From Rhodanobacteraceae bacterium (GTDB lineage: Bacteria; Acidobacteriota; Terriglobia; Terriglobales; Acidobacteriaceae), in contig JAYVZP010000072.1 of the NCBI GenBank assembly GCA_043783275.1, positions 1,394 to 65,393 on the forward strand: DNA of 64,000 nucleotides, written 5' to 3'. Position 1 is the first letter of the stretch. Every line of letters starts with the position of its first letter. Of this stretch, positions 34,423 through 55,108 are shown piece by piece. A program made the translations under genes and the position numbers. The notes beneath the pieces are model-generated. The model had not been told where the DNA came from, did no database searches, and saw only the letters and a list, made by a program, of their open reading frames with translations.

Positions 34423-34512
34423 GGAAGAGTGGCCGAGTGGTTGATGGCTCCAGTCTTGAAAACTGGCGTACCTGAAAAGGTATCGGGGGTTCGAATCCCT
34501 CCTCTTCCGCCA
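34423..34512 (+). tRNA. tRNA-Ser (anticodon UGA), encoded CCA
   Basis: GGAAGAG-TG-GCCGAGTGGTTGATGGC.. Anticodon arm CCAGT-CTTGAAA-ACTGG, long variable arm, T-arm GGGGG-TTCGAAT-CCCTC, acceptor CTCTTCC-G-CCA. Confidence 0.9.
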
Positions 34513-34858
34513 TTCCCCTTATCCCCTCAGTTTCCAACGCCGTTACCGCATCAATCCCCAACAACGATAGGGTGTTCCACGCTAGAGACCGCTAAGGAGC
34601 GTTATCGAGCGTTAGCCCGGTATTCGTCAAAATGGCCGGATAGGAGTAACGGAATGGCTAAAGCGCAAAATAAAAGGTAACGGGGGTTCGGTTTCCACAG
34701 GAAGCCGCCAAGCTAACGGTGGGTGTTACGCTCCGCACATGTTCATTTTCGATCCGCCAAATCCGAGCCCCGAGTTCGTAGCACAGGTGACAAGCTGCTA
34801 GGAAACCTTTGAGAGGATCGTCGCCTTACACCCTGAAGACCCGGAAGGCAACCATCAA

Positions 34859-35374
34859 TTGCGTGTAGCCGCCGCTGCCAGTTCACAGGCATTTGAACAC
34901 TTCCGGGCTATTTTGATTCTTTGTAAGAGTCGCGTGGCAGACGGGAGTGCTATGGCGCTTTTCCGCCCACTCGTGGAGGCTGTTGTGCGAAGTGATTGGA
35001 TTCTACGCTGCGCAACAGAGCAGGAGTTCACGGGCATCTGCAACCGAACTTGCAGCTTCCCTAAATTTAAGGTGATGGCAGACGCCCTTGACAAAGAACA
35101 TGCCCGGTTTGACTATGCCAAAAAACCCTACTTCTCCAGTTTTACGGGTGACGCATTCTTCGTGATGAGCGGTTACGCTCACACCGGCGTCGAGCAATTA
35201 GTGCATCGGATCGACCCGGACGGCACAATTGGGCCAGCCTACAAGGAAAGTCATATGATTCGCCTTCTAAAGAAATCCAAGGAATTGACATTGCGGCACT
35301 TTGCTCTTTTGGCACATGCACGGGGCTTCGAGGACGTCACGAAAGAACTCCTAAACCTTCCAGTTGATTTCTGA
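34859..35374 (+). CDS. Hypothetical helical protein, possibly a DUF5677/AbiV-like (HEPN-like) remnant
   Basis: 171-aa ORF with a TTG start and no ATG. More AT-rich than its surroundings by eye. Motifs AMALFRPLVEAVVRSDWILRC and LRHFALLAH (an Rx6H spacing). The family call is from memory of the motif style only. Confidence 0.35.
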   Translation: MRVAAAASSQAFEHFRAILILCKSRVADGSAMALFRPLVEAVVRSDWILRCATEQEFTGICNRTCSFPKFKVMADALDKEHARFDYAKKPYFSSFTGDAFFVMSGYAHTGVEQLVHRIDPDGTIGPAYKESHMIRLLKKSKELTLRHFALLAHARGFEDVTKELLNLPVDF

Positions 35375-35808
35375 GTTTTGCCCCGAGGTAGCCAACCTTC
35401 CCTTTTCCAGTCCTCACCTGACCAATCTATCCAAAATCAACCGAGCCAACGCCACGCTCTCCGAAACCACATTCAGGAGCCGGGGTGAAGACCGACTGAT
35501 GTTCTCATCCCGCGCCAGCCGCACCGCTGCGATGATTGAGGCTGAAATCATCAAGGTGGAGGCGAAGCGGTCCTTGATGTGTTGCTCTTCTCCCTCCCCT
35601 TAGCTCTCTTCATGACCCCCATGCCTTCGAGTGTAGGCGAATAGAAAACGAAGATGTCCACAGGGGTCCGCGGGTTGCAGCCTAATCGTGTCACCCGTAA
35701 ACTACCCCAGTTAGTTCATCAGAGGAAGCGACGCTACTGCCACGATTTCCAGATTACGAGGCTAACAACCTGCGCCGCCTACTAATCGCTGGTGATATCA
35801 GCGGAGCG

Positions 35809-36480
35809 TTGAGTCTCTATCAAACGTGGTGCCCGCCCACGGGAGGTAAAGTGTTTCAAGATATCGACCGTGCACACATTGACGGACTCTTTGCTGCTCG
35901 TCCTGCGGTACTTGCCAGTATGCCGTCGTCAGATTTCCGTCAAATACAAGTTGTCGTAGTAATGAGGCAGTTGCTTGGTCATGGGGGCCGACCGGAAAAG
36001 CTACTTCCGAGTTCATACCAGTGGCCAAGTCCGATGTCTTTTAAAGCTGCCTTGAACGCGATGCAGAGCAACTACAACTGGAATCGGGATCGGAGCCAGC
36101 TTCGAAGCTGGGGATGGAAGCCACTTTGGCAGTACCTGAAAACATGTGATCCCGAAACCTGTTCCGCTTGCGATGAGGCAAGGCGTTACCTCTACAATGA
36201 CGATGATTTTCCGGGTTCTCCGATCCCTGGGTGCACGAACTCGATGGATGGTTGCCGGTGTCTAGCTATGGGGATGGACCCAAAGGATGGCCAGGCACTG
36301 ATCGATTCAGGAAATTACGCATGTTCTTTTCAGCGCACTGATGGGGCCAGGGCGTCACTGCAGGTGGCCGCGGTCGCCTGTCGCCTTACCGTATCGTTCG
36401 CCGGTCATCGGTCCCCGTTGCTTTGTACGGATAGTTTGGAAGATGCTTTCTGCAACTCACTGTGCGCTGACGCGAGATAG
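35809..36480 (+). CDS. Cys-rich hypothetical ORF, possibly a remnant of a phage Mu-F/SPP1-gp7-like head-morphogenesis C-terminal region
   Basis: TTG start. DPETCSACDEARRYLYNDDDFPGSPIPGCTNSMDGCRCLA resembles the TCxxC...(P)xxCRC motif of that family. The 3' end overlaps the convergent lyase gene by 76 nt, so the true extent is doubtful. Confidence 0.3.
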   Translation: MSLYQTWCPPTGGKVFQDIDRAHIDGLFAARPAVLASMPSSDFRQIQVVVVMRQLLGHGGRPEKLLPSSYQWPSPMSFKAALNAMQSNYNWNRDRSQLRSWGWKPLWQYLKTCDPETCSACDEARRYLYNDDDFPGSPIPGCTNSMDGCRCLAMGMDPKDGQALIDSGNYACSFQRTDGARASLQVAAVACRLTVSFAGHRSPLLCTDSLEDAFCNSLCADAR

Positions 36481-37946
36481 TTAATCTCTGCCATGTGCCA
36501 GGCGCGGTCGGCTCCGAGCTGTTGTGCCGCACGCTCCAGCTCAGGATCAAGCGCTGACGGGGCTGGCCCACCGCGGACTGAGCGGATGGCGATGAAGTTT
36601 TCCGGATCCAGTGCCCTCTGAATCTCTTTGATCGAGATGCAAACTCCAGCAGCCTCTGAGCGTGCGTGCAGGTCCCGCGCAAGCGCAACCGTGTCGTCGC
36701 TGCTGGCAGCCTTCACGGCCGCGGCAACGATCGTGTGTGCGTGGTGAAAGGAGATACCGCAGGTGCGTACGAGTGTATCGGCCACTTCCGTCACCGTCAG
36801 GAAACTGGCGTTGGCGCGCGTCTTCATGTGATCCGTATTGAAGCTGGCTTCTGACAACGCACCCGCCAGTAGCGCAAGCGCGCGATGTCCATCGGTGAAT
36901 GCAAGCGCGACAAGCGGCTGCAGGGAGTCCTCGCCATCATTCATGTCTGCGAACGGTGTATTGTGCAGCGAGCCAAGTATGGACTGCGCCTCCGTCAGCG
37001 CCCGGGAAGCGAGGATTCGCGAGTGCTCCAGCGGCACGGGGTTGCGCTTCTGCGGCATGATGCTGCTGGTCTGCACGTAGCCATCGGAGAGGCGCAGGAA
37101 ATTAAACTCTGCCGTGGACCATAGCAGCATGTCCTGCGTAAAACGTCCGAGGCTTAGCATGGCTGTCGCGAGCACGCTGCATGCCTCCGCCACGTAATCG
37201 ACGGCGGCAATGGCGCCGTAAGAATTGGTAACGAGGCCGCGAAAGCCGAGCAGCTTTTCCGTCTGGCTGCGGTCGATGGGGAAGCCTGTGGTGGTAATGG
37301 CGCAGGCACCCAACGGACTTCGATTGACGCGTGCATAGCAGCCGATCACGCGCTCCGCATCGCGCTCCAGCACTTCGATCATCGCCATCATGTAATGGCC
37401 CAGCGTCGTCGGCTGCGCAGGCTGATTGTGTGTATACGCGGGCATGATGGCAGCGCGGTACGTCTTCGCAATTTCTAATAGTGTGTTGCGCAACGCGAGC
37501 GAGGCCGCTAAAGTTTCGAGCAGGCGTTGCCGCAGCACCATCCGGTACATAGTCAGGTCAATGTCATTGCGCGAGCGTGCGGTGTGCAGGCGGCCCGCGT
37601 GTTCGTCGCCGGCGATCTCGGCAAGCTGCCGCTCCACCAGGAAGAAGAGATCTTCGACGGTGCCGTCATAAGCCACCGTGCTCAGTGCTTTCAGGTCGAG
37701 TGCATTTAACGCATGCAGGCAAGCTGCAGCGGTCTCGTGCGAGACGATACCCTGGGTGCGCAGCATAACCAGGTGCGCGTAGTCGATCTGGAGCAGAGCA
37801 GGCAAAAAAAGCCGTTGTGCATCCGCGAAGATGTGCGCGAGCACATGCTCCCGGTAAATGGGCGCGGGAAACTTCGATGCGGTAATGTTTGCTTCCATAG
37901 CTTGCGTTTTCTCGTATAACGACAGAAAAAAAGACGGTAAGCCCAA
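36405..37946 (-). CDS. Argininosuccinate-lyase-family (fumarate-lyase superfamily) protein, atypical paralogue
   Basis: TSSIMPQKRNPVPLEHSR (the GSSxMPxKxN signature region), HTARSRNDIDLT, AYTHNQPAQPTT. Lacks the canonical ArgH N-terminus. The start may be 37898 (MEAN..). Confidence 0.8.
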   Translation of the reverse strand: MGLPSFFLSLYEKTQAMEANITASKFPAPIYREHVLAHIFADAQRLFLPALLQIDYAHLVMLRTQGIVSHETAAACLHALNALDLKALSTVAYDGTVEDLFFLVERQLAEIAGDEHAGRLHTARSRNDIDLTMYRMVLRQRLLETLAASLALRNTLLEIAKTYRAAIMPAYTHNQPAQPTTLGHYMMAMIEVLERDAERVIGCYARVNRSPLGACAITTTGFPIDRSQTEKLLGFRGLVTNSYGAIAAVDYVAEACSVLATAMLSLGRFTQDMLLWSTAEFNFLRLSDGYVQTSSIMPQKRNPVPLEHSRILASRALTEAQSILGSLHNTPFADMNDGEDSLQPLVALAFTDGHRALALLAGALSEASFNTDHMKTRANASFLTVTEVADTLVRTCGISFHHAHTIVAAAVKAASSDDTVALARDLHARSEAAGVCISIKEIQRALDPENFIAIRSVRGGPAPSALDPELERAAQQLGADRAWHMAEINYLASAHSELQKASSKLSVQSNGDR

Positions 37947-37973
37947 GCCGCACCGTCTCTTTTGTGGACGGAT

Positions 37974-40889
37974 TTAGAACTCGATGCGCGCGCCAAACTG
38001 CAGAATGCGCGCTTCGAGTACGGAGCTGGTAGGCACCAGGGAGGGCTGCGTCGTGATACTGCCGGCAGCGTTGGTGGTGGCAGTGGTGTTGATGGAGGTG
38101 AAGTTGGAACGGTTGACGAAGTTGTTGGCTTCGACGAAGATTTGCGACTTCACACGTTCGAACAGGGTGGCGAAGGTACGGGTGTAGCGTGCATCCGCCT
38201 GGAAGATATTCGGGGTGCGAAGGGTGTTGCGGCCGACGAACAGGGGGCGCTGCTGGCCGACGGCCAGAGTGTCTCCATTCAGATTCCTGCCGGTCACAAG
38301 ATTTTGCTGATCGCCGCTGCTGGCGTTGACCAGCACGGCCAGGTTGTTGTTCGCCACAAGCCCATTGAGATAGCGATTGGCGAAGTGTGTCTTCGGCTGA
38401 TACACCGTGCGCAGGGTGAAAGAATTTGGACGGTTGATATAGCTATTGCTGCGGTCGCGCTTACGGTTGGTGGCATCGGAGATGAAGTTTGAGTTCTCGA
38501 AGCTTGTGGCCTCCGGCGCGTCAGAGATGGCGTGGGACCAGGTGTAGGACGCATTGAATTCCAAGCCACCCGTCATGCGGTGCGTGTAGTTTGTCACCAG
38601 CGCGTTGTAGCTGCTGTTGGCCCCGATATCGACAAAGCGGATGTTGTTGAAGGAAGGGTTATAGCGGGTCAAGCTGTTTACGGTGGAAGAGAACGCAGAA
38701 CGACCATCGGCCAGCGGCGCCAGCGCGACGCCTGTTGCTGATACGCCGGGGATAACGTTGCTATTGCGCAGGAACTGGAGGTTGCGGCCGCTCGTCATGA
38801 TGTACCCGATGGTCAATGCGTCGCTCTTGCTAAAAGCCTGTTCCACCTGAGCGTTGACATTCCACGTGTACTCGTTTTTAAAGCGCGAGGTGAGGGCATA
38901 GGGTGTCGGTGTGGGCAGGGAGGCGACCGGCACGTTGTTGAAGGTGTTTGGGAAGGATGGTGCTCCGACGGCGGTCGGACCGAGGGTCGCTATCAGGTTG
39001 CCCGTGTTGGTAAGGCCATTGCTGTACAGGGGGTTGTAGAAGCTGTTTGTCGGCGTAGCTTCATAGAAAATGCCACCGCTGAGGCGGACGACAGTGGAAG
39101 AGTTTGGCGTAAAGGCGAGGCCCAAGCGGGGTGAGAAATTTCCCATCGGCGTGCGGAACTTCTGCGTCTCTGGGAGCGGTGCGTTGACGAGTCCGTCCGG
39201 GGAGCGGTACTGGTCGTAGCGGACACCGTAGTTTGCAACAAGGCGCTTGGTGATCTGCCACGTGTCCTGGGCGAAAAGATCGAAGAAGACGGTCTGGTAA
39301 CCGGCGCCGGGACGGCCGATAGATGCAGTCACATTGCTGTACGACTTGGTGTTCGTTCCATTGTTCGCAGCCGTGTAGTCCGCCAGGGTAGCAAACGTGA
39401 ACTGGGTGTAGATATCGGCGAGTTGAGTGTCGTTATTTTTCTGGAAGCCGACGCCGACCTTGAAGGTGTGCCCTCCCCTGACGAGCGTTACGTTGTCAGA
39501 GAAGGAAGGGATCTTTTCCTGAAACTTGTCCCCTGAGCCGTTCGTTCCGCCGAAGTTTGCTACGCCGGAGATGGTTACCATGGGGCCGGCGCCCGTTGCG
39601 ACGCCTGCAAAGTGCTGCTGGTTACGGTATGGCCAGGAGCCGCGGAATTCATTCAGCAATGTCGGCTTGAAGGTAGTAATCAACTGCGCGCCGATGATGT
39701 GGGCGCGGTCGCGGAAGTCAGCCTCTGCCGACTGCAGGAAGAGACCGCCGGCATTGGTGTTGAACGGGTAATCGTTGCGGAAGTAGTTGTAGCGCACAAA
39801 GAACGTGTTCTTTGAATTGATGTTGACGTCCAGGCGGGCATCGGCCCATTGGGCACGCTGCACCTGGGGAGCGGTGTTGAAGTCAGCCACCGGCACGCCA
39901 AGGGCGACCAGCGCCGCCTGGTTAGCCGCGGTGACCGTGACGGCTTGCGGGTTGCCGCGCTTCAGATGCTCATAAGCCCCGAAGAAAAACACACGATCCT
40001 TCACAATAGGCCCTCCAATACGGCCGGTCAGGTCGTCGACGTGAAGGTCTGGCTTGGGCTTGTAACCTGTGACGCCCGGGGTGCAATTCTGCAAAATAGG
40101 GCAGGAGCTGGCTGCCTTGGGTCTCCAGATATATTGCACTGCGCCATGCAGACTGTTGGTGCCGGCCGGGGTGATTACGTTGTAGATGATGCCAGCGGTA
40201 TTGCCGAACTCGGCGCTGAAGGCATTGGAGATGGTCTGGACCGTATCGGTGTAGCTGTCGGAGATGGCGAACAGGCGCAGGCCGTAGCGATCGCTCTCCG
40301 TATCGACCATGCCATCAAGCTGATAGTTCACACGATCCACCAGGCCGTTGGTGTTGACTGTCCGAGGGATGCCGTTTTCCGCATTCGGATGGCCTGAGAC
40401 GCCTGGTTGAAACAACATAAAATTATATGGATTGCGCGAGGTGAGAGGCAGATTCTGTGTTTCCGCAGAGGTGATGGTGCTGCTCAGGTCGGCGCGCGCG
40501 CTCTCGATGATTGGAGCCTGGCTATTGACCGTGATCTCGGTTGCAACCGAGCCGGCCTTCAGGACCTCATCGATCGTGCTGTCGGTTCCCGCTCCAATGC
40601 GGATGCCGTTCTGCATCAGCGGGGCGAAGGATGAGGAAGTGGCCGTGACCGAGTAGGTGCCGATGGGCAGGTTTGGAGCGATGTAACGGCCGTCGTTATC
40701 GGTGGTTATTTGTCTGACATATCCGTTGTCCGTGTTCTTCACAAGAACTACCGTGTTCGGTACGGGTGCGCCGGTAACGTCCGTGACCTGTCCGCGGATG
40801 GTGCCGTTGATGGACTGAGACTGTCCAAGGGCGGAGACGGCGGACAACGCCAGCGCGGTAGTCGCGAGGGAGCGAGATAGCTTCAACAT
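37974..40889 (-). CDS. TonB-dependent-receptor-like outer-membrane protein with an N-terminal CarboxypepD_reg domain
   Basis: Signal MLKLSRSLATTALALSAVSALGQ. GTIRGQVTDVTGAPVPNTVVLVKNTDNGYVRQITTDNDGRYIAPNLPIGTYSV. Plug-like ..LPLTSRNPYNFMLFQPGVSG. Long beta-rich body ending ..QFGARIEF (terminal Phe). Confidence 0.85.
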   Translation of the reverse strand: MLKLSRSLATTALALSAVSALGQSQSINGTIRGQVTDVTGAPVPNTVVLVKNTDNGYVRQITTDNDGRYIAPNLPIGTYSVTATSSSFAPLMQNGIRIGAGTDSTIDEVLKAGSVATEITVNSQAPIIESARADLSSTITSAETQNLPLTSRNPYNFMLFQPGVSGHPNAENGIPRTVNTNGLVDRVNYQLDGMVDTESDRYGLRLFAISDSYTDTVQTISNAFSAEFGNTAGIIYNVITPAGTNSLHGAVQYIWRPKAASSCPILQNCTPGVTGYKPKPDLHVDDLTGRIGGPIVKDRVFFFGAYEHLKRGNPQAVTVTAANQAALVALGVPVADFNTAPQVQRAQWADARLDVNINSKNTFFVRYNYFRNDYPFNTNAGGLFLQSAEADFRDRAHIIGAQLITTFKPTLLNEFRGSWPYRNQQHFAGVATGAGPMVTISGVANFGGTNGSGDKFQEKIPSFSDNVTLVRGGHTFKVGVGFQKNNDTQLADIYTQFTFATLADYTAANNGTNTKSYSNVTASIGRPGAGYQTVFFDLFAQDTWQITKRLVANYGVRYDQYRSPDGLVNAPLPETQKFRTPMGNFSPRLGLAFTPNSSTVVRLSGGIFYEATPTNSFYNPLYSNGLTNTGNLIATLGPTAVGAPSFPNTFNNVPVASLPTPTPYALTSRFKNEYTWNVNAQVEQAFSKSDALTIGYIMTSGRNLQFLRNSNVIPGVSATGVALAPLADGRSAFSSTVNSLTRYNPSFNNIRFVDIGANSSYNALVTNYTHRMTGGLEFNASYTWSHAISDAPEATSFENSNFISDATNRKRDRSNSYINRPNSFTLRTVYQPKTHFANRYLNGLVANNNLAVLVNASSGDQQNLVTGRNLNGDTLAVGQQRPLFVGRNTLRTPNIFQADARYTRTFATLFERVKSQIFVEANNFVNRSNFTSINTTATTNAAGSITTQPSLVPTSSVLEARILQFGARIEF

Positions 40890-40949
40890 AAGACCTCCAG
40901 AAAGTCGTACAGAGTGACGAACCATGCAAGGTGCTGCGTACGTGAAGAT

Positions 40950-42218
40950 CTAACAGAGCAATTTCTGCTCTGCCGCCGCAAGAGATACGGACACGGCGCC
41001 GAAGAGTTGTGCACTGCTGCCAAGGGAAGAAGAGCGTAGCAACGGCAGGGCGAAATCGTTGTCCTGCAGATATAAGCTCGTAGCCGAGCAAAGCGCAGGA
41101 TGAGATCCGACCCCACCACCCAGAACGACAAGTTCCGGGTTGTACATCAGCGCGATCATGCTCAGTGCGTCAGCCAGGATGCGCGCTGTGCTCTGCAGAA
41201 TTTTGTCGGCACGCTTGTCGCCACGCTCGGCCAGATCGAAGATCTGTGGTGCACGAAGCTCGAGAAGATCGTCAGAGGCGGGGGCCCCATCCTGGCGCAG
41301 CAGCGTCTTCCAGCGAGTCTCAATACCCAGACCGCCTATGATGCGTTCCAACTGGCCGGTTTCCCGCATCAGGACGCGTTTCCGTGGCTCCCCGGTGACG
41401 GGCAGGTAGCCAACTTCTCCGGCAGACCAGGTTGCCCCGTGGTGAAGGGCTCCACGGAGAAAAATGCCCGCGCCCACGCCTGTTCCCATTGCCAGAAAAA
41501 CAAAGTTGTCGACGCCGCCAGCTACACCTTCCGCGTGTTCGCCGACCGCGGCCAGGTTGGTGTCATTCTCAACCTCCGCGGAGATGGAAAGTTCTCGCTC
41601 CAGCAGCATGCGCAGGGGAACGTCGTTCCAGCCGGCCAGGTTCGGGGCTGCCAGCACGACACCGCGCTTGACGTCCGTGATGCCCGGTGCGCCCGCGGTC
41701 AGGTGAAGCACGCGGCCAGGGAGACCAGACTGCGCGACCATGTGATCCAGTCCCAGGTGCACCAGGCCCACGACTCCGCGTGGAGTCTTCTGCTGCTCTT
41801 CCATGTGGGTGTTCCACTCGGCCACAGGCTTGCCGTTCAGGTCTGCCAGCATCATGCGTATGCGTGTGCCGCCAATATCGACGCCTGCCACATAGCCGTA
41901 CTGGGCATTAAAACGCAGCATCGACGGAGGACGTCCGCCGGAAGATGTTCCTTCTCCCAACTGTTCCACCAATCCATTCGCAATCAGGTTCGCCACTACC
42001 ATGGACACCGTGGGTGCCGTCAGACCCGACATCCGCACAAGGTCAGCCTTGGAGCAGGGGCTGTTCATGCGCAGTAGACGTAACAGCAGCCGGTTATTGG
42101 AGATCCGCAGTTGTGCAGGGCGCGCAGCCTGAGTCGGCACGACAACACTCGCCGTGCCGCGGGGAAGGACAGGACCCTTCGCAGTTCGACGGCGGGTTGG
42201 GGTCACGCATCTGGTCAT
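40950..42218 (-). CDS. ROK-family transcriptional regulator (wHTH + ROK sugar-kinase-like domain)
   Basis: HTH: NRLLLRLLRMNSPCSKADLVRMSGLTAPTVSMVVANLIANGLVEQ. ROK: GVDIGGTRIRMMLADLNGK..FLAMGTGVGAGIFL. I could not see the usual CxCGxxGC zinc motif. Confidence 0.85.
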   Translation of the reverse strand: MTRCVTPTRRRTAKGPVLPRGTASVVVPTQAARPAQLRISNNRLLLRLLRMNSPCSKADLVRMSGLTAPTVSMVVANLIANGLVEQLGEGTSSGGRPPSMLRFNAQYGYVAGVDIGGTRIRMMLADLNGKPVAEWNTHMEEQQKTPRGVVGLVHLGLDHMVAQSGLPGRVLHLTAGAPGITDVKRGVVLAAPNLAGWNDVPLRMLLERELSISAEVENDTNLAAVGEHAEGVAGGVDNFVFLAMGTGVGAGIFLRGALHHGATWSAGEVGYLPVTGEPRKRVLMRETGQLERIIGGLGIETRWKTLLRQDGAPASDDLLELRAPQIFDLAERGDKRADKILQSTARILADALSMIALMYNPELVVLGGGVGSHPALCSATSLYLQDNDFALPLLRSSSLGSSAQLFGAVSVSLAAAEQKLLC

Positions 42219-42307: not shown

Positions 42308-42709
42308 GGGGCAGTAAATTTCGCCAGCGTAAACCGGCGGCACCTCACCTGCGACGGTCACCACGGAGTGAATTTTGCAAGGACGACAAATCGCAGTACT
42401 TCTAAAGCGCCTTTACGGCGGAAGATCAGTCGTGATTCTGTATGCCGTATTTGCCGCAGAAGTAATTGTTTTGGCTGCGGTTGTCCACGGGCAGACACCG
42501 CTTCCGGAACCCATGAAGATTCGCGTGGACGCTTCCTATGCCGAGCGGCTGCCGTTTGAGCGAGGGGCCGCTCGATCGGGTGAGAGCGAAATTCGCACCG
42601 GCCTCGTAGCGCGACTGTAGGCTCCAAAGCCTGGGGTGTTGCGCAGCACTTACTGAGTCACGCCGAAACATATCCAGACCGAGCTTGAATTTCCTCTATC
42701 ATTCGCAAA

Positions 42710-43289: not shown

Positions 43290-43311
43290 TGTTGAGTCGG
43301 GATTTCCGATA

Positions 43312-47695: not shown

Positions 47696-47735
47696 CTCAA
47701 CAATGTACAAGCTCCCGTAGCGTAAGCTGGCGATC

Positions 47736-49025
47736 ATGCGAATGCAAAAGAGTATGTGGGTGATAGCGGCGCTGCTAACGTGTGGAAGCACGTCACGCGC
47801 GCAGGACCCGATCGTCTATCCGTCATCCAGCGGAGCCCAGACCGAAACCGATGAGTACACCCGCTACGAGCTGCTCGCCCCCGAATCCGCCAGCTTCAAA
47901 ATCTTCTACGAAGTAACCGCGACCACCGCCGGGGCAAAGTATTTTTACAACCCTATCCGCAAGGGCAGCGTTGCGACGGACGAGTCCGTGTTCGATGCCA
48001 TGACCGGCAAGCCCATAGCCTTCGAGGTCGTTCACGGCACCGACGCCCGCAAAGACCCGCTGATGCCCAAGGCCGACCCCGACACCGACTACATCAAGGT
48101 AAAGCTCGCCCGTCCTGTACCCGAGCACGGACAAGGCCGCGTCCTCATCGTCAAGACCTACAAGGATGCGAAGAGCTACTACACCGAGGGCAACGCTATC
48201 GTCTTCAACCGCCCCCTCGGCATCCGCCGCAACAAGATCGTCCTGCCCTCGGGCTATGAGCTGACCGGCTGCACCGTGTCCTCGCAGATCCTCACCGAAC
48301 CCGACGGACGCATCGCCGTCAGCTTTATGCATTCCGGTTCCGGCGAGGCTCCACTGGTACTGCACGCGGTAAAGGACGCACAGCCTGGAGCCACACCCCA
48401 CGCCCCAAGCAACGCCAGGAGCTGGGAGTCGCCGTACCCGGGTCTGCCCGAGCGAGCCCGTCTCTCCGAGCGCGCTCACGAGGACCGCGACATCGTCTAC
48501 TTCCTGCAGCAGCCCGAGACCCACGCCTTCTCCCTCTTCCATGACTACACCGAGACCCGCGCCGGCATCAGTGCCTACGCCAACGTCGTGCGCGAGGGCA
48601 GCAAAGCCTCCAACCCCTCGGCCTATGTACTCGACACCGGCGAGCAGCTCCCCACCAGGGCCATGACCGGCGCTACCATGCAGGCCGCCAGGTTCAACGC
48701 CGGTGAGGAGGTCGATGCCAAGGCCGACGTCGTCGTCATTCCCTTCGGTGCCGTCAAGCCCGGGGAGTCGTTACGCCTCCGCATCTCCGAGACCTACACC
48801 GCCCCCGTAAGCTACCGTCTCGACGGCGATGAACTCGTCTTCGAGCGTAGCCTGGGCCGTCCGCGCAACGCGGTCGTCCTGCCCAGCGGCTGGTATGCCA
48901 CTGCCAGCGCCGTGCCCGCCACCGTGTCGCAACTTCCAGATGGCCGCGTCCGCCTCGACTACTGGGCTGACGCCCCCGAGGCCGCAGACGTGCTCCTGAA
49001 AGCGCGCAGACGTATTGTCCGTTAG
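47736..49025 (+). CDS. Secreted hypothetical protein built from two homologous ~190-aa domains
   Basis: Signal MRMQKSMWVIAALLTCGSTSRAQ. Repeat 1 has ..FKIFYEVTATTAGAKYFYNPIRKGS..VFNRPLGIRRNKIVLPSGYEL..EPDGRIAVSF. Repeat 2 has ..FSLFHDYTETRAGISAYANVVREGS..VFERSLGRPRNAVVLPSGWYA..LPDGRVRLDY. Confidence 0.65.
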   Translation: MRMQKSMWVIAALLTCGSTSRAQDPIVYPSSSGAQTETDEYTRYELLAPESASFKIFYEVTATTAGAKYFYNPIRKGSVATDESVFDAMTGKPIAFEVVHGTDARKDPLMPKADPDTDYIKVKLARPVPEHGQGRVLIVKTYKDAKSYYTEGNAIVFNRPLGIRRNKIVLPSGYELTGCTVSSQILTEPDGRIAVSFMHSGSGEAPLVLHAVKDAQPGATPHAPSNARSWESPYPGLPERARLSERAHEDRDIVYFLQQPETHAFSLFHDYTETRAGISAYANVVREGSKASNPSAYVLDTGEQLPTRAMTGATMQAARFNAGEEVDAKADVVVIPFGAVKPGESLRLRISETYTAPVSYRLDGDELVFERSLGRPRNAVVLPSGWYATASAVPATVSQLPDGRVRLDYWADAPEAADVLLKARRRIVR

Positions 49026-49210: not shown

Positions 49211-49247
49211 GTGGTCCTGCCGACAAGAGGTCGCCACCGGTACATCC

Positions 49248-49651: not shown

Positions 49652-49740
49652 TTTCACAGCGTCGTATGTCTGTTGCTTCCGGTGTGGAATTTACTTGCGA
49701 GGCTAGAATAGGCAGCGATGTCTAACGGAGCCTTGACCTG

Positions 49741-52700
49741 ATGCGAAAGCTTGCCGTTCTCCTGACCTCCTGTGCTGTAGCCGCGACCTCCTATGCCGCT
49801 CCGGTTCGCCTCCGCACCAACGCGCTTGAAAGCCCGATCGGTATCGACACGCCGCACCCCACCTTCTCCTGGCGTAGCGATGCCAAGCGCGCTGACTGGA
49901 TGCAGTCCGCCTACGAGATCCTGGTCGCGACAGATCCCGCAACCCTCAAGACCGGCAAGCCAGACGTCTGGGACTCCGGCCGCACCCTCTCCTCCGAGTC
50001 CGTCAATATTGCCTACGCGGGTCCCTCACTCAAGCCGCAGCAGCGCTACCTCTGGGCTGTCCGGGCATGGGACGAGCAGGGCAAGGAGACCACCTCCGCT
50101 CCCACCTGGTTCGAGACCGGCCTCGCGAACTGGCAAGCCCAGTGGATCGCCCGCAAAGACCCCACCTCCGAGGCCGAACTCTTGGCCATCCGCTGGCTCT
50201 GGCTTCCCGGTGCCGACGCCATGCACGTCTTCAATGGTTCCGTCGCACACTTTCGATACACCTTGCACCTTGACGCTGCGCCCTCCGCCGCCAGCCTGCA
50301 CCTCGACGTCTGCGGCAAGTTCGTCGCGCACGTCAACGGCAAGGAAACCGGCCACCATGATCAATGGAGCGCCTTCGATCGCGAAGAGATCGCCTCTCTC
50401 CTTCATTCCGGAGACAACGAGATCGAGATCGATGCGGAGCCCAGTTCTGACAGTGACCCTAAAACCGGTTCTCCCGCCGCGCTGGCCGCATCCATTCACA
50501 TCACCGATGTCTCTGGAGTCGAGCGCCGCATCGTGAGCGATAAGTCATGGCAGGCACGCTCCACCGGCACCGCCGCATGGCAGCCCGCTGCCGAGGTGGG
50601 TCCCATCTCTATGCGCTTCAGCACCGACGTAGACCGCCACGGCCGCATCCCAGGACCCGACCGCATCTCCACCGATGCTTCACTTCTTCGCAAGGATTTC
50701 TCGGTCCGCTCCGCTGTACGCTCTGCACGTCTCAGCATCACCGCGCTCGGAGCGTACCAGGCGTTTCTGAACGGCAAATCGGTCTCTCCCGCTGGCCTTC
50801 TTGCCCCCGGTTGGACCGACTTCCACAAACGCGTGCTGTACCAAACCTACGATGTCACTTCGCTGCTCAACAGCCGCTCCAACACGATCGGCGTCGAGCT
50901 TGGCGGCGGCTGGTACAGCTCGCCCTTGACCTGGATCGGCGTGCGCGACACCCCAGGGCAGAATCTCCTGCGCGCCCAGCTTGATCTGACGCTCGCGGAC
51001 GGGACCCACCAGATCATCGCGACCGATCCGAGCTGGCTCACTGCCGCTGCCCCCGTTACCTTCTCCGAGATCTATGGCGGCGAATCCTACGACGCACGCC
51101 TTGCCCAACGCGACTGGAATATGCCCGGCTTCTCTGCATCCAGGTGGACCGCAGCGATCGCGAGCATGCCGCCCCACGCGAATCTTGCCCTTACCGCGCA
51201 GCCCGATCTTCCAATCCACACCACCATCACCCTACCCGCGAAGACCATCACCACCGTCGGTTCGAGCGCAATCTTCGACATGCAGCAGAACATGGTCGGT
51301 ACCATTCGCATCCACGTGCGCGGCTCGCGTGGCTCGGTCGTAAAGCTGCGATTCGCCGAGCGCCTCAACCCCGACGGCAGCATCTACACCACGAATCTTC
51401 GCAACGCGGATGCCACCGACACCTACGCGCTCTCCGGATCCGGCGACGAAACCTGGCAGCCCGCTTTCACCTTCCATGGCTTCCGCTACGTCGAATTCAC
51501 CACCCTTGGAGCACCCCTCGCCGCGCCGCCCACGCTCGCGACCGTCGAGGGCATCGTTTACAACTCCCTCCCTGCAATGCCATCCGTCCGCCTCTCCAGC
51601 TCCAGCAACATACTTAATAAAATGAATGAGCTGGGAGCCTGGGGCCAGCGCGGCAACTTCGTCTCCATTCCCACCGACTGCCCGCAGCGCGACGAGCGTC
51701 TCGGCTGGATGGGCGATGCCGGTGTTTTCTGGCGAACGGGTTCCTTCAACTTCGACATCGACGCCTTCACCCACAAGTTCATGCTCGACGTCACCGACGC
51801 CCAGACCGCCGCCGGTGCCTTTACCGACGTCTCCCCCAACGTCCTCGGCCCGAAGGTGGGCGCACCCGGCTGGGGCGATGCGGGTGTCTTCATCCCCTAC
51901 GCCACCTGGCTGCAGTATGGCGATGTCGCCATCGTCGAGCAATCCTGGTCCGCCATGGAACGGTGGATGGCCTTCATCCTCAAAACCAACCCCGACTATC
52001 TCCGCCGCAACTCGCTGGGCAACAATTACGCCGATTGGCTCGCACCCGACCAACACACCCCCAAGGATCTGATTGCCACCGCCTACTGGGCACTCATCGC
52101 CCGCGAAATGGCGGAGATGGCCACGGCTCTTCACCGTCCCGGCGACGCTGCGAAGTATCAATCTCAGTACGATCACATCTCCACTGCGTATCGCGCCGCC
52201 TACGTCAAGCAGGATGGAAGCGTGGCGGGCGGAACTCAGACCAGTTACCTCGCCACCATCGCTAGCGGCATTGCGCCTGAGTCCCAGCGCGCGGCCATGG
52301 TCAAGAAGGCTGTCGAGGACATGGAAGCCCACGGCACTCATCTCACAACGGGCTTCCTGGGCACGCCGTTCCTGCTGTCCGTTCTCGATGAAAACGACCG
52401 CTCTGACATCGCCTTCAAACTTCTCCTCTCGGAGACGTACCCATCTTGGGGCTACATGGTGAAGAAGGGTGCAACCACCTGGTGGGAGCGCTGGAACGGA
52501 GACACAGGCGACCCCGGCATGAATTCCTATAACCACTATGCCTTCGGTTCGGTGATGGCCTGGGTCTATCGCCGCGCGGCCGGTATCGACACTGATTCCA
52601 CCGGCCCCGGTTTCCACCACTTGACCATCCACCCGCACTTCGACGAGGCCTTGCCCAAACTCCACGTCGAGTACGACTCGGCCTACGGCACTGTCATTTC

Positions 52701-52830
52701 GGATTGGAAGCAGGTCGATAAAAAGTTCACCATCTCGATCCCGGCCAACACCTCGGCAACGGTCATCCTGCCCGGGGGGAAGACCGAAACCGTCGGTAGC
52801 GGCACCCACACCTACACCATCGAGAGATAG
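49741..52830 (+). CDS. Alpha-L-rhamnosidase (GH78)
   Basis: 1029 aa with a signal peptide. ..FSWRSDAKRADWMQSAYEILVA.. (N-terminal rhamnosidase domain), catalytic-domain hallmark IPTDCPQRDERLGWMGDA, ..GATTWWERWNGD.. Confidence 0.9.
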   Translation: MRKLAVLLTSCAVAATSYAAPVRLRTNALESPIGIDTPHPTFSWRSDAKRADWMQSAYEILVATDPATLKTGKPDVWDSGRTLSSESVNIAYAGPSLKPQQRYLWAVRAWDEQGKETTSAPTWFETGLANWQAQWIARKDPTSEAELLAIRWLWLPGADAMHVFNGSVAHFRYTLHLDAAPSAASLHLDVCGKFVAHVNGKETGHHDQWSAFDREEIASLLHSGDNEIEIDAEPSSDSDPKTGSPAALAASIHITDVSGVERRIVSDKSWQARSTGTAAWQPAAEVGPISMRFSTDVDRHGRIPGPDRISTDASLLRKDFSVRSAVRSARLSITALGAYQAFLNGKSVSPAGLLAPGWTDFHKRVLYQTYDVTSLLNSRSNTIGVELGGGWYSSPLTWIGVRDTPGQNLLRAQLDLTLADGTHQIIATDPSWLTAAAPVTFSEIYGGESYDARLAQRDWNMPGFSASRWTAAIASMPPHANLALTAQPDLPIHTTITLPAKTITTVGSSAIFDMQQNMVGTIRIHVRGSRGSVVKLRFAERLNPDGSIYTTNLRNADATDTYALSGSGDETWQPAFTFHGFRYVEFTTLGAPLAAPPTLATVEGIVYNSLPAMPSVRLSSSSNILNKMNELGAWGQRGNFVSIPTDCPQRDERLGWMGDAGVFWRTGSFNFDIDAFTHKFMLDVTDAQTAAGAFTDVSPNVLGPKVGAPGWGDAGVFIPYATWLQYGDVAIVEQSWSAMERWMAFILKTNPDYLRRNSLGNNYADWLAPDQHTPKDLIATAYWALIAREMAEMATALHRPGDAAKYQSQYDHISTAYRAAYVKQDGSVAGGTQTSYLATIASGIAPESQRAAMVKKAVEDMEAHGTHLTTGFLGTPFLLSVLDENDRSDIAFKLLLSETYPSWGYMVKKGATTWWERWNGDTGDPGMNSYNHYAFGSVMAWVYRRAAGIDTDSTGPGFHHLTIHPHFDEALPKLHVEYDSAYGTVISDWKQVDKKFTISIPANTSATVILPGGKTETVGSGTHTYTIER

Positions 52831-53150
52831 CAGGGAGAGCGAGAATAGGGCAATTGCAGGAGCCCGATCTCGACTGGGCGAAGATCATTTGTTGCAAAGT
52901 CGCCAATTCACTCATTCAGGGACACGGTACTTCCTCAACTGGAATCGAGCCTGACTTTCCCGTCGATCTTCGCAATCGTTTTCCTTGCTGGGTTTCTTGC
53001 GCCAAAGGTCTACGCCAAGATCAAGACTCATCACGGACCGCACCCACTGGACAACCTGCCAGTGGGTACGGCTCTTGTCCAGGATGCCGTACGCCATCAA
53101 TGGGTCGATGCCACCCCCTCAGGAGAGGGTCTCATTAGGAGTTAACGCTT

Positions 53151-53510
53151 ATGACTCAGGGGAAACGGGCGCAGGCTTCTTCGGCGCAGCGGACCTACAT
53201 CTGGCGGCGTTCGAAGGCAGGAGAGTCATTACATGAGATTGGGCGCTCATCGCTGACTGATCGAGAAGAGATCTCCTGAGGCATTAACTCAGGTTCGTTG
53301 ATTCGTGAGATTGCCACAAGCCGAGCCGAGCTGCCTTGACGGTTGAGTTGGAAGATCGCACGGCATGGTGGCCGTCCATGAGCCGTTACGGGAGATCGTT
53401 GTAAGGAGACTGACTTTGGACTGGTCGCCTGAACAGGTCTCCGCATGGTTTAGGCCCCCGTGTCCATGGATCCAGTTTGACCACAGGGAGCTATTTTATA
53501 CGGGAGGCAA
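53151..53510 (+). mobile_element. IS30-family transposase N-terminal remnant (multiple stops and frameshifts, DDE domain missing)
   Basis: MTQGKRAQASSAQRTYIWRRSKAGESLHEIGRSSLTDREEIS*GINSGSLIREIATSRAELP*.. then, in another frame, ..LREIVVRRLTLDWSPEQVSAWF. These match the HTH LTxxEREEISRG / IAREL and WSPEQI(S/A) elements typical of IS30 transposases. Confidence 0.55.
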
Positions 53511-53535
53511 CACCTTCCTACGGTTGCGTCTGGAC

Positions 53536-54705
53536 CTAGTTCGTGTAGATGCGCACATAATCCACAAGCATTTCGGCAGGAAACAATGTGGACGAAGTTG
53601 GCGCGCCGGGATAACTGCCGCCTATCGCCAGGTTCAGAAGAATGAAGTTGGACTGGCCACCGTCAAAAGGCCAAATGGCGCCGGGGTATCCGGTTAGGCT
53701 GGCGGCACTGAAGGTGGCGTAGACGTTGGAAGGCGAGTCGACATAGTAAGCGACGGAGTTGGGGGTCCAGATCATGCCGTAGGTGTGCCAGGTTGCGGCT
53801 GTCTGTCCAGTGGGAAAATGGTACGGCGTCCCGATGGCCAAGCCAGTGAAGCCGGGGCCGTGGATGGAGCCCTGATTGAAATCAGGGACGGTGGCAGCGT
53901 TAACGCGCTCCATGACGTCCATCTCGCCACAAGCGGGCCAACTGACGGTAGCGATATTGTTTCCCATTAGCCAGCCGGCGGGCCAGAGGCCCTGGGCTTC
54001 AGGCAGCGAGGCGCGGAACTCAAGACGGCCGTACTGAAAGCTGAAGAGGCCTTGGGTCTTCATGCGGGCTGAGGTGTAGACGCCGGGAGTGGGCTGGCGG
54101 CCGACGACGTGGAGATAGTTGTCGGTGCCGACATACGCATTCGGGCTGGCCGCGCTGCAAGGCGACGAGGTTGAGCCGAAGGAACAGTAGTCTTCAAGCT
54201 CGGAGTTGCCCCAGCCGTTAGCACCTGTTTCGTAGCCCCAGATGGCGGGATTCGGAGCCGCATTAGCGCCGGTGGTATTGGTAAACTCATCGCTCCAGAC
54301 AAGGGTACCGGCGGCAACGTTGACCGCGAGGGCCTTGGTCGTTACCCCGCTGTTGGTCATGCCGGATGAGATGCCGATGGCCTTGATGCTGGAGCTGGAG
54401 GTTACGAGGAAGGGGGCAAGGTACTGGGTGGAGGTGCTGGTGGGTGCGCTGCCGTCGGTCGTGTAGACGATGTTCGCGCCGGAGGTGGAGTCGGCGATAG
54501 AGACGATGACCGCGTTATTTTGTGCGGGCGTAGAGGTAATGGTGGGATTGGCGACCTGGCCGGTTCCGCCGCCGGCGCCGGTGAGAATGGGCGCCGAAGT
54601 AGTAGCGACTGCTCCGCCGCAACCCAATAGGGAGAGAGCCGCAAGGAAGACGAAGGACGCGTGGCGAGCAGACTTGAAGAGAAAGGAGGTGCTGGCGGTC
54701 GTCAT
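53536..54705 (-). CDS. Lipoprotein glycoside hydrolase family 16 (beta-glucanase/laminarinase-like) with an N-terminal chitobiase-type Ig-like domain
   Basis: Lipobox LSLLGC. IVYTTDGSAPTSTSTQY. GH16 catalytic motif GEMDVMERVN (ExDxxE). WHTYGMIW. Confidence 0.85.
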   Translation of the reverse strand: MTTASTSFLFKSARHASFVFLAALSLLGCGGAVATTSAPILTGAGGGTGQVANPTITSTPAQNNAVIVSIADSTSGANIVYTTDGSAPTSTSTQYLAPFLVTSSSSIKAIGISSGMTNSGVTTKALAVNVAAGTLVWSDEFTNTTGANAAPNPAIWGYETGANGWGNSELEDYCSFGSTSSPCSAASPNAYVGTDNYLHVVGRQPTPGVYTSARMKTQGLFSFQYGRLEFRASLPEAQGLWPAGWLMGNNIATVSWPACGEMDVMERVNAATVPDFNQGSIHGPGFTGLAIGTPYHFPTGQTAATWHTYGMIWTPNSVAYYVDSPSNVYATFSAASLTGYPGAIWPFDGGQSNFILLNLAIGGSYPGAPTSSTLFPAEMLVDYVRIYTN

Positions 54706-55087
54706 GTGGGTTAGCCCCTGATTGAAATCTTAGAACTTAAATCGTAGCTATATTTGTACGGCCTGACTGCGGGTGTGACTACATCTGTTTTGTTACGGCC
54801 TTCCATTCGGGCAGCCCCGGATGGTTGAAGACGTTCATCACCCGATTCCAGCTGGGCGTTACCCTCCCTCATCCCATCCTCTGGGGGGCGCACAGGACCA
54901 TCCAGGTTTACTCGGTATGAGCATCTGTCCATGTGATCCTTTTGTGGCAATCTCAATTTTTTGGAAGAGACACACGCCATGACAAGGCGATATGTTTTGC
55001 CATGCAGTCAAAGCTGCAAACAGAGCGGTTCTAGCCGGTGATCGAGATTAGTTGTTGATTGCAAAAGCACGGGTAGGAGCGAGCATA

Positions 55088-55108
55088 CGAATCCCTCCTC
55101 GTTCGCCA
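55088..55108 (+). repeat. Imperfect direct copy of the tRNA-Ser 3' end (candidate distal att site of an island)
   Basis: CGAATCCCTCCTCgTTCGCCA versus tRNA-Ser 34492-34512 CGAATCCCTCCTCtTCCGCCA. 13 nt are identical, then 6 of 8. Same orientation. Confidence 0.55.

What the first reader, a model, noticed from the sequence alone, without database searches (positions are those of the whole stretch)
34423..55108. ~20.6 kb accessory island bounded by tRNA-Ser(UGA) and a degenerate direct repeat of its 3' end
The last 21 nt of tRNA-Ser (CGAATCCCTCCTCTTCCGCCA, 34492-34512) recur in the same orientation at 55088-55108 (CGAATCCCTCCTCGTTCGCCA). There are 13 consecutive identities plus 6 of the next 8. 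A 13-mer match is unlikely by chance in 64 kb, and the T-loop-to-CCA segment is the classic target duplicated by tRNA-integrating elements.

Genes outside the pair are core: ispE, prs and ribosomal genes on the left; nad, pan and coaBC on the right. Genes inside are accessory:
- decayed phage or abortive-infection-like ORFs;
- a ROK / TonB-receptor / lyase operon;
- the TIR + DUF2075 pair;
- amidohydrolase;
- GH78 and GH16 glycosidases;
- a glycosidase remnant;
- an IS30 remnant.

No integrase is left, so this would be an old, fixed island.
Basis: partly seen in the sequence, partly recalled or inferred. Interest (0 to 1): 0.65.

Follow-up and report, generated by a model that had tools for sequence, protein, structure and literature searches.

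The report
Old decayed tRNA-Ser genomic island
In this soil or glacier Acidobacteriaceae genome, about 20.6 kb of sugar-utilisation and candidate phage-defence genes was inserted long ago into the end of a serine tRNA gene and has since lost its integrase, which makes it an ordinary genomic island.

Summary
tRNA-Ser(UGA) lies at 34423-34512. Its last 21 nt recur on the same strand at 55088-55108 with 19/21 identity, where about 1e-4 matches are expected by chance.

Four results make the repeat a true displaced tRNA fragment (attR):
- A sister strain (about 95-96% nt identity) keeps it with different substitutions, so the ancestral copy matched about 20/21.
- Homology between the two strains restarts at the repeat's left edge.
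- The 39 nt after the repeat match the native flank 3' of tRNA-Ser in distant relatives (0/1000 shuffles reach the score).
- In 2.66 Mb of related loci, the motif occurs outside tRNA genes at only two sites, both in the sister strain.

Relatives carry tyrosine integrases at this tRNA, so it is a serial integration hotspot.

The 20.6 kb is a mosaic, not one unit:
- The core blocks are as diverged as the flanks, look like the flanks in composition, and include genes conserved across the family.
- Some segments vary between strains: a broken DUF6988/PDC-S52 gene, a PDC-S41 islet, an IS30 remnant, and the right arm.

The window contains no integrase and no TIR domain. This is a known kind of feature, of modest interest.

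The parts
34423..34512 (+). tRNA-Ser(UGA), the regenerated integration target (attL side)
   Evidence: ARAGORN and Rfam RF00005 at 57.7 bits. It is linked to lolE in about 40 relatives.
34492..34512 (+). attL copy of the 21-nt identity block, running from the T-loop to CCA
34513..34685 (.). Left-arm remnant of a family of tRNA-Ser-integrating elements. It is shared with elements in sister strains but diverged.
   Evidence: 80.8% identity to strain R, against 92.4% for the lolE-tRNA intergenic region. 78% identity to L172. R diverges from the window at 34685. L001 and L190-192 diverge at 34513/34514.
34739..35374 (+). DUF6988 / PADLOC PDC-S52-like gene, broken by an in-frame stop at 34799-34801. 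The 34686-35990 cassette is absent from sister strain R.
   Evidence: Pfam DUF6988 at 2.2e-15. PDC-S52 at 4.8e-14. 58.5% aa identity to the full-length 213-aa L172 homologue. Stop codon seen. Absence from R. GC 0.531.
35809..36480 (+). orf223, with no family match. It spans the 35991 homology breakpoint and is probably not a real gene.
   Evidence: 35991-36404 is only 82% identical to R.
36405..37898 (-). Lyase_1 / argininosuccinate-lyase-family enzyme (497 aa)
   Evidence: Pfam 5.2e-45. Start codon. 96.0% nt identity to R.
37974..40925 (-). CarboxypepD_reg + outer-membrane beta-barrel protein (TonB-dependent-receptor-like)
   Evidence: Pfam 1.5e-92. 96.5% identity to R.
40950..42218 (-). ROK-family regulator/kinase with an N-terminal winged helix
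   Evidence: Pfam 1.4e-41. 95.7% identity to R.
42452..43288 (.). Window-specific 837 nt with no family match in the ORFs tested. R has 68 nt here instead. This is the upstream part of the defence islet.
   Evidence: No family hits.
43312..45312 (+). PADLOC PDC-S41 candidate defence gene (Schlafen group 3 / DUF2075 helicase, 666 aa). The 42436-45547 islet is absent in strain L166.
   Evidence: PDC-S41 at 5.5e-288 and SLFN-g3_helicase at 2.5e-80. L166 lacks it. 98.1% identity to R against about 95.8% for neighbouring genes. GC 0.520. No TIR.
45626..47737 (-). Amidohydrolase (703 aa)
   Evidence: Pfam and gene call. 62.6% aa identity to the L204 homologue, which lies three small genes from the orf427 homologue there.
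47742..49025 (+). orf427, a conserved hypothetical protein widespread in Acidobacteriaceae
   Evidence: No Pfam or PADLOC match. More than 8000 homologues at 73-85% identity. In a housekeeping context in L204 and L207.
49741..52830 (+). GH78 alpha-L-rhamnosidase (1029 aa)
   Evidence: Five Pfam rhamnosidase domains, best 2.2e-110.
52968..53513 (.). 546-bp indel that is absent from sister strain R and holds most of the frameshifted N-terminal remnant of an IS30-family transposase (53142-53466)
   Evidence: Joint 52967->53514 in runs X9, X11 and X5. tblastn of the L028 transposase covers residues 1-164 at E 1e-21.
53536..54705 (-). Secreted GH16 glucanase with a CHB_HEX_C / Fn3-associated domain
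   Evidence: Pfam. 93.5% identity to R.
54804..55087 (.). Right arm of the island, variable between strains. R has 444 unrelated nt here.
   Evidence: Joint 54803->55091 and alignment A1.
55088..55108 (+). Displaced 3' fragment of tRNA-Ser (attR core), 19/21 identical to 34492-34512
   Evidence: Conserved in R as CGA-TCCCTCCTCTTTCGCCA. Its left edge is the window/R homology breakpoint.
55109..55147 (+). Native downstream flank of tRNA-Ser: a spacer plus the start of a second T-arm-like fragment (GGGGTCCGAATC). It abuts the epimerase stop codon.
   Evidence: Homologous to the DNA just 3' of tRNA-Ser in L072 (score 19; 0/1000 shuffles reach it) and L035. Absent downstream of the epimerase in 80 other relatives.

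Best explanation
The interval 34513-55087 is DNA placed between tRNA-Ser(UGA) and its own displaced 3' end. A tyrosine-integrase-type recombination did this, with its crossover in the T-loop/T-stem region.

The proposed mechanism follows. The steps are inferred from the sequence comparisons; no recombination was observed directly.
1. An element carrying a copy of the tRNA's 3' part recombined with the gene.
2. The element's copy regenerated an intact tRNA at 34423-34512.
3. The original 3' end and its native downstream flank were pushed about 20.6 kb away, to 55088-55147, right beside the epimerase stop codon.

This happened before the window strain and a sister strain (about 95-96% identical) split. 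The integrase has since been lost, so the island is now immobile.

The same tRNA then kept acting as a landing site:
- The sister strain carries a younger element with a split integrase gene, whose distal end is marked by an exact 16-nt copy of the tRNA end.
- Another relative has two integrase genes directly after the tRNA.
- The window keeps only a decayed left end of such an element (34513-35990, with a broken DUF6988/PDC-S52 gene).

Smaller insertions came later inside the old island: the PDC-S41 defence islet and an IS30 copy.

The bulk cargo is carbohydrate-utilisation genes that look native to Acidobacteriaceae. It comprises the ROK regulator, the outer-membrane receptor, the lyase, the amidohydrolase, GH78 and GH16.
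For: 1. The repeat is significant: 19/21, same strand, 0 matches in shuffles, about 5e-5 expected.
2. Sister strain R has the repeat at the same place with independent changes: one deleted A, and it shares the C->T with the window but lacks the window's T->G. The ancestral copy was therefore about 20/21.
3. Window/R homology breaks exactly at the repeat's left edge. The window has 287 nt and R has 444 unrelated nt to its left. This is what a recombination site would produce.
4. The 39 nt to the right of the repeat align with the native flank of tRNA-Ser in L072 and L035. The DNA now following the intact tRNA does not (0/1000 shuffles).
5. The fragment starts in the T-loop, without the 5' T-stem or a spacer. 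That fits a site-specific crossover rather than an arbitrary insertion.
6. The 16-mer tRNA end, with up to 1 mismatch, occurs outside tRNA genes at only two sites in 2.66 Mb of related loci. Both are in R: next to its integrase and next to its epimerase.
7. Integrases sit at this tRNA in relatives: a 418-aa and a 576-aa Phage_integrase directly 3' of the tRNA in L184-186, and a split homologue beside the 16-nt repeat in R.
8. The DNA to the right of R's younger repeat matches the DNA directly after the intact tRNA in L190/L191.
9. At least five different sequences follow the tRNA in close strains (LolE 98.4-99.5% aa identity): window, R (L173-177), L172, L190-195 and L001.
10. This signature, a regenerated tDNA plus a displaced fragment, is the published definition of such islands (PMC4383910).
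Against: - The window has no integrase or integrase fragment.
- No relative was found with an empty site, meaning tRNA-Ser directly abutting the epimerase or nad operon.
- The bulk of the region is compositionally indistinguishable from the flanks. It is present in every conspecific assembly seen.
- orf427 and the amidohydrolase are family-wide genes that lie in a housekeeping context in relatives. The cargo is therefore not demonstrably foreign.
- Contiguity between tRNA-Ser and R's integrase element could not be shown, because assemblies break about 1.1 kb after the tRNA.
- In R the integrase lies on the opposite side of the att core compared with L184, and this is unexplained.
Confidence: 0.75

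Rival explanations
1. The displaced fragment is real, but it marks only small integrated elements that have since been deleted. The bulk (lyase to GH16) is native chromosome that reached its place between the tRNA and the fragment by an ordinary rearrangement, such as translocation, recombination between att or IS copies, or relocation of the tRNA-lolE segment. On this view it was never island cargo.
For: - The cargo has flank-like composition and flank-like divergence.
- orf427 and the amidohydrolase are conserved across the family and lie in core context elsewhere.
- Gene order in this family is very fluid. The epimerase has different neighbours in 80 relatives. In L045 the nad operon lies between tRNA-Ser and lolE.
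- No empty site was found.
Against: - By the logic of 3'-end integration, everything between a regenerated tDNA and its displaced fragment in direct orientation is inserted DNA.
- The fragment begins in the T-loop and is followed by the native flank. The tRNA-lolE linkage on the other side is ancestral. A rearrangement would need both of its breakpoints to fall exactly at these att cores.
- Old islands are expected to take on the host's composition over time.
Confidence: 0.2
2. An ancestor already had a tandem array of tRNA-Ser 3' fragments beside the tRNA, as L072 has today. The 20.6 kb then entered between the tRNA and the first array unit by some mechanism unrelated to the att sequence. The repeat would then be a bystander.
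For: L072 has 3.6 tandem copies of a 52-nt unit made of a spacer and a tRNA 3' fragment, and L035 has two copies. The window's 55109-55147 looks like a spacer plus the start of a further unit.
Against: - The window and R fragments start inside the T-loop and are not preceded by a spacer or a full T-arm.
- Two close strains differ exactly up to that point.
- R shows a second, independent use of the same core next to an integrase.
- Such arrays are themselves most simply read as scars of repeated integration and deletion.
Confidence: 0.04
3. The 21-mer similarity is due to chance or is a common genomic motif.
For: T-loop sequences are shared by many tRNAs, and two weaker partial matches exist in the window.
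Against: The expected count is about 5e-5 to 3e-4, with 0 matches in shuffles. The repeat is conserved in the sister strain, its flank is homologous to the native tRNA flank, and it is not scattered through 2.66 Mb of related DNA.
Confidence: 0.01

Closest known systems
tDNA-integrated genomic islands as defined by Islander/TIGER (Hudson, Lau & Williams 2015, PMC4383910), T-stem-region crossover class, including tandem arrays
   Same: An intact tRNA gene lies at one end and a displaced 3' fragment lies at the other, in direct orientation and followed by the native flank. The identity block runs from the T-loop to CCA. The length of about 20 kb is typical. Serial (tandem) use of the same tDNA is seen in sister strains.
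   Different: The window has no integrase gene, so Islander's filter would reject it. The fragment is degenerate (19/21). The cargo has taken on host-like composition and is fixed in the species. In the window itself, the younger layers are reduced to a remnant of about 1.5 kb.
Large metabolic islands in tRNA genes, such as the Mesorhizobium symbiosis island in a phe-tRNA gene (Sullivan & Ronson, cited in PMC4383910; otherwise from my own knowledge)
   Same: Integration at the 3' end of a tRNA gene, and cargo that is metabolic rather than viral.
   Different: Those islands keep an integrase and transfer genes and are demonstrably mobile. This one has neither and is much smaller.
Defence islands / integration hotspots that collect anti-phage genes (general concept, from my own knowledge; PADLOC candidate families PDC-S41 and PDC-S52)
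   Same: The segments that vary between strains carry PADLOC candidate defence genes: PDC-S41 at E 5.5e-288 and PDC-S52 at 4.8e-14. At the same place, sister elements carry Mrr_cat, AAA_21 and HNH-like genes.
   Different: Neither candidate family has a tested function that I could find; no paper in the library mentions PDC-S41. The PDC-S52-like gene here is broken by a stop codon. Most of the island is not defence-related.
IS30-family insertion sequences
   Same: 53142-53466 encodes the HTH / N-terminal 164 residues of an IS30-type transposase (E 1e-21 to the L028 copy). Its presence varies between strains.
   Different: It is truncated and frameshifted, has no DDE domain, and no terminal inverted repeats were identified. 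It is a remnant and not an active IS.

Membership tests
tDNA-integrated genomic island (Islander definition) | Intact tRNA/tmRNA gene at one boundary | tested here: met
   tRNA-Ser(tga) at 34423-34512.
tDNA-integrated genomic island (Islander definition) | Displaced fragment of the same tDNA at the other boundary, in direct orientation | tested here: met
   55088-55108 on the + strand, 19/21. Conserved in the sister strain, with an ancestral copy of about 20/21. Not a scattered motif.
tDNA-integrated genomic island (Islander definition) | The fragment is followed by the target's native flank | tested here: met
   55109-55147 is homologous to the post-tRNA-Ser flank of L072 and L035; 0/1000 shuffles reach the score.
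tDNA-integrated genomic island (Islander definition) | Tyrosine integrase gene inside the island | tested here: not met
   No Phage_integrase hit among the island ORFs. tblastn with three related integrases found nothing in the window. Integrases are present at this tRNA in relatives.
tDNA-integrated genomic island (Islander definition) | Empty site in a relative, with the tDNA directly followed by the right flank | tested here: inconclusive
   None of the roughly 40 relatives with lolE-tRNA-Ser has the epimerase or nad genes within 10 kb on the tRNA's 3' side, and L045 carries the nad operon between lolE and the tRNA. None of 80 epimerase loci has tRNA-Ser. L072 and L035 keep the short native flank but not the epimerase.
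tDNA-integrated genomic island (Islander definition) | Anomalous composition or patchy distribution of the cargo | tested here: not met
   The bulk blocks have a tetranucleotide distance of about 13, against 9-17 for flank segments. They are present in all conspecific assemblies. This feature is met only for the PDC-S52 cassette, the PDC-S41 islet and the IS30 remnant.
PADLOC PDC-S41 (candidate single-gene defence system) | Full-length match to the family HMM | tested here: met
   E 5.5e-288, residues 35-684 on profile positions 3-653 of 657.
PADLOC PDC-S41 (candidate single-gene defence system) | Protects against phage | not testable with these tools
Variable presence between strains and low GC are only consistent with this.
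   No Pfam or PADLOC hit in the N-terminal 266 residues or in the upstream ORFs tested (42375-43336).
IS30 family | IS30-type transposase (HTH + DDE) | tested here: inconclusive
   Only residues 1-164 of 389 are present, and they are frameshifted. Pfam HTH_38 reaches only E 0.2. The DDE part is absent, so this is a remnant.

The most novel reading that the evidence does not exclude
Integrative elements at this tRNA-Ser hotspot may move ordinary chromosomal gene blocks between Acidobacteriaceae, not only selfish or defence genes. That would explain why an att-bounded island is filled with family-native carbohydrate-utilisation genes such as the amidohydrolase-orf427 pair. The tandem arrays of tRNA 3' fragments seen in relatives (L072) could act as multiple landing pads that favour such serial capture.
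Probability: 0.12. Interest if true: 0.55.

Novelty: new member of a known kind. Interest (0 to 1): 0.3.

Why it matters
Acidobacteriaceae are abundant in soils and on glaciers, but their mobile elements are little described. This locus gives a precisely mapped attB (the T-loop-to-CCA end of tRNA-Ser(UGA) next to lolE). Strains of one species show several successive layers of integration there, and relatives supply matching integrases. It could serve as a natural landing site for genetic tools in this group. It also shows how glycan-utilisation genes and candidate defence genes (PDC-S41, PDC-S52) come to vary between strains. The finding adds no new principle.

Tried and rejected
- Synteny in species-level genomes (genome contigs). 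lolE-tRNA-Ser is conserved, but what follows the tRNA differs in almost every genome. The first ORFs there were ordinary genes, not integrases. No empty site turned up.
- Epimerase loci from metagenomes. None is next to the nad operon or tRNA-Ser. Their usual neighbours are absent from the window. The right flank is therefore not conserved core synteny.
- Integrase fragments. Pfam on all large and many small ORFs and tblastn with three related integrases, a serine recombinase and other element genes found only the DUF6988 homologue.
- TIR search. Nothing found.
- A glycosidase remnant. ORFs in 49026-49740 and 52831-53140 gave no family hit, so it is not confirmed.
- Composition as evidence of transfer. 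It is informative only for the two low-GC islets.
- Extending the sister strain's element to the tRNA. The left and right contigs do not overlap.
- Rfam scan of 30-60 kb. Only the two tRNAs were found.
- Literature. Nothing specific on Acidobacteriaceae tRNA-Ser islands or on PDC-S41.
- Rejected idea: that the T-arm-like GGGGTCCGAATC at 55136-55147 is a chance match or part of the epimerase 3' UTR. It is absent from 80 other epimerase loci. It corresponds to the next repeat unit of the native tRNA flank.

Full report
**1. The observation**

tRNA-Ser(tga) lies at 34423-34512 on the + strand (ARAGORN; Rfam). Its last 21 nt, CGAATCCCTCCTCTTCCGCCA, recur on the same strand at 55088-55108 as CGAATCCCTCCTCGTTCGCCA, a 19/21 match. 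No other match with up to 3 mismatches exists in the window, and none appeared in 100 shuffles. From the window's base composition I calculate 4.8e-5 expected same-strand matches, or 2.9e-4 allowing both strands and all three tRNAs.

**2. Organism and genes**

The flanking proteins place the window in the Acidobacteriaceae, close to Granulicella and Edaphobacter.

- Left flank: prs, tRNA-Gln, ispE and a lolE/FtsX-type permease.
- Right flank: an NAD-dependent epimerase, a class-V aminotransferase, nadC, nadB and nadA, then panB, panC and coaBC.

Between the repeats lie the following:

| Window coordinates | Feature |
|---|---|
| 34739-35374 | DUF6988/PDC-S52-like gene with an in-frame stop |
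| 35809-36480 | orf223, no family match |
| 36405-42218 | Lyase_1 enzyme, CarboxypepD_reg outer-membrane barrel, ROK regulator |
| 43312-45312 | Schlafen-group-3/DUF2075 helicase; matches PADLOC PDC-S41 over its full length (E 5.5e-288) |
| 45626-49025 | Amidohydrolase and orf427, a conserved hypothetical protein |
| 49741-52830 | GH78 rhamnosidase |
| 53142-53466 | IS30 transposase remnant (E 1e-21 to a full copy in L028) |
| 53536-54705 | GH16 glucanase |

No integrase was found by Pfam or by tblastn with related integrases. No TIR domain was found.

**3. Distant relatives**

In about 40 genomes the tRNA-Ser gene sits about 250 nt from lolE, so that linkage is ancestral. What follows the tRNA differs in nearly every genome. 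The epimerase in 80 relatives (83-89% aa identity) is never beside the nad operon or tRNA-Ser. Gene order in this family is therefore too fluid to supply an empty site.

**4. Close relatives**

Contigs from glacier metagenomes and loci fetched through cluster members reveal a sister strain, here called R, about 95-96% identical in nucleotides. R has the same flanks and almost the whole interval.

Identity between the window and R:

| Segment | nt identity |
|---|---|
| Flanks | 94.2-97.0% |
| Lyase, receptor, ROK, amidohydrolase, orf427, GH78 | 95.7-96.5% |
| GH16 | 93.5% |
| PDC-S41 | 98.1% |

The core of the interval was therefore already present in the common ancestor, which means it is old and fixed.

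The differences between the window and R are local:
- (a) After the tRNA, the two share 173 nt at only 81% identity and then diverge. R lacks 34686-35990.
- (b) 42452-43288 is replaced by 68 nt in R. Another strain, L166, lacks the whole PDC-S41 islet (42436-45547).
- (c) 52968-53513, which holds most of the IS30 remnant, is absent from R.
- (d) 54804-55090 is replaced by 444 unrelated nt in R, and homology restarts at the left edge of the repeat.

**5. The repeat is a true att site.** Five independent lines support this.

- (i) R keeps the repeat at the same place as CGA-TCCCTCCTCTTTCGCCA. Its changes differ partly from the window's, so the ancestral copy matched the tRNA at about 20/21.
- (ii) The breakpoint between the strains coincides with the repeat's left edge.
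- (iii) The 39 nt after the repeat (55109-55147) align with the DNA directly 3' of tRNA-Ser in the distant relatives L072 and L035. The local score is 19, while 1000 shuffles reached at most 16. The DNA that now follows the intact tRNA does not align. This stretch includes a T-arm-like GGGGTCCGAATC that puzzled me at first. In L072 the native flank is a 3.6-copy tandem array of 52-nt units, each a spacer plus a tRNA 3' fragment. The window keeps one spacer and the start of the next unit. So 55088-55147 is the original 3' end of the tRNA with its original flank, now 20.6 kb from the gene.
- (iv) The fragment begins in the T-loop, with no 5' T-stem before it, as expected for a crossover there.
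- (v) In 2.66 Mb of related loci, the terminal 16-mer (up to 1 mismatch) occurs outside tRNA genes at only two sites, both in R.

**6. The tRNA is an active hotspot**

- In a relative with 95% LolE identity (L184-186), a 418-aa and a 576-aa Phage_integrase with HTH_17 genes follow the tRNA directly.
- In R, beyond the lyase, there is a 154-aa ORF plus a 272-aa Phage_integrase ORF. Together they look like a split homologue of the 418-aa enzyme (inferred by eye from shared sequence motifs; not aligned). Next to it lies an exact 16-nt copy of the tRNA end.
- The 95-150 nt to the right of that copy match the DNA directly after the intact tRNA in strains L190/L191. They also lie next to the lyase in L210. 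This is the pattern of successive integrations, each pushing the earlier layers outward.
- Other strains carry still other content after the tRNA. L172 has Mrr_cat, a full-length DUF6988, AAA_21, a serine recombinase and phage-like ParB/methyltransferase/DUF5681 genes. L173/174 have IS3- and resolvase-type genes. L190-195 have IS21 IstB.
- The window's 34513-35990 is best read as the decayed left end of an L172-like element.

**7. Caveats**

- The bulk cargo is not demonstrably foreign. Its composition matches the flanks; only the two defence cassettes are low in GC, at 0.52-0.53.
- orf427 has more than 8000 homologues at 73-85% identity.
- In relatives, orf427 lies among rplT/rpmI, gyrB and ETF genes. 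In L204 the amidohydrolase is nearby.
- No empty site was found.
- R's element could not be joined to the tRNA, because assemblies break about 1.1 kb after it.
- R's integrase lies on the other side of the att core compared with L184.

These points keep alive a rival in which native DNA was moved between the att sites by rearrangement. I give that rival 0.2.

**8. Comparison with what is known**

The anatomy matches the published definition of tDNA islands: a regenerated target plus a displaced fragment mark the ends, and tandem arrays occur (PMC4383910). One defining feature, an integrase gene inside the island, was tested and is not met in the window. I therefore call it a decayed remnant of such an island, not an active member. 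The mechanism is not in doubt, because intact or split integrases sit at the same att core in relatives.

**9. Verdict**

The details need correction:
- The region is a mosaic, not a single unit.
- The cargo is largely native to the family.
- There is no TIR domain.

This is a new member of a known kind, of modest interest (0.3).

Noticed in passing
L072:9652-9835 (also L035:9760-9848): Directly 3' of tRNA-Ser, a Granulicella-like genome carries a tandem array of 3.6 copies of a 52-nt unit made of a spacer and a tRNA-Ser 3' fragment. L035 has two copies. These may be scars of repeated integration and deletion, or multiple landing pads.
   Followed up: partly
window 42436-45547; L166:20380-20657: The PDC-S41 islet is absent in one conspecific assembly (L166), where ROK lies close to the amidohydrolase. 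The gene is 98.1% identical between the window and strain R, while its neighbours are about 95.8%. This suggests recent exchange between strains.
   Followed up: partly
L178:16578-17903 (same in L179-L183 and L196-L203): The sister strain's integrase is split into a 154-aa ORF and a 272-aa ORF in every assembly examined, so it may be inactive. It lies on the opposite side of the att core compared with the homologous 418-aa integrase of L184.
   Followed up: partly
L045:4286-11242: In one relative (72% LolE identity) the aminotransferase-nadC-nadB-nadA operon lies between tRNA-Ser and lolE. The three features are therefore linked in two distant lineages, but in a different order.
   Followed up: no
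window 55146-56276 versus L082, L094, L104 and others: In many relatives a conserved cluster precedes the epimerase: cytochrome-b561-like, YedY-like, methyltransferase, DUF2064-like, a membrane protein and GT2. The window lacks this cluster, and the epimerase-nad adjacency seems specific to this species.
   Followed up: partly
window 49026-49740: This intergenic stretch is only 82% identical to strain R and has several indels, including a 21-nt insertion in R. The 191-aa ORF called here is not conserved; R has a 58-aa call. It is probably decaying or non-coding DNA.
   Followed up: no
window 34799-34801: There is an in-frame stop codon in the DUF6988/PDC-S52-like gene, relative to the full-length 213-aa homologue in L172.
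   Followed up: yes
L001 (JAYVDT010000104.1), also L002, L003, L017, L035: Several MAG contigs labelled Rhodanobacteraceae, Gammaproteobacteria, Acetobacteraceae or Lichenicola carry this Acidobacteriaceae lolE/tRNA-Ser locus at 70-99% identity. These are probably binning errors.
   Followed up: no
L184:5261-9614: Two different tyrosine integrases (418 and 576 aa), each with an HTH_17 excisionase-like gene, lie in tandem right after tRNA-Ser. No second att copy occurs within 9.7 kb.
   Followed up: partly
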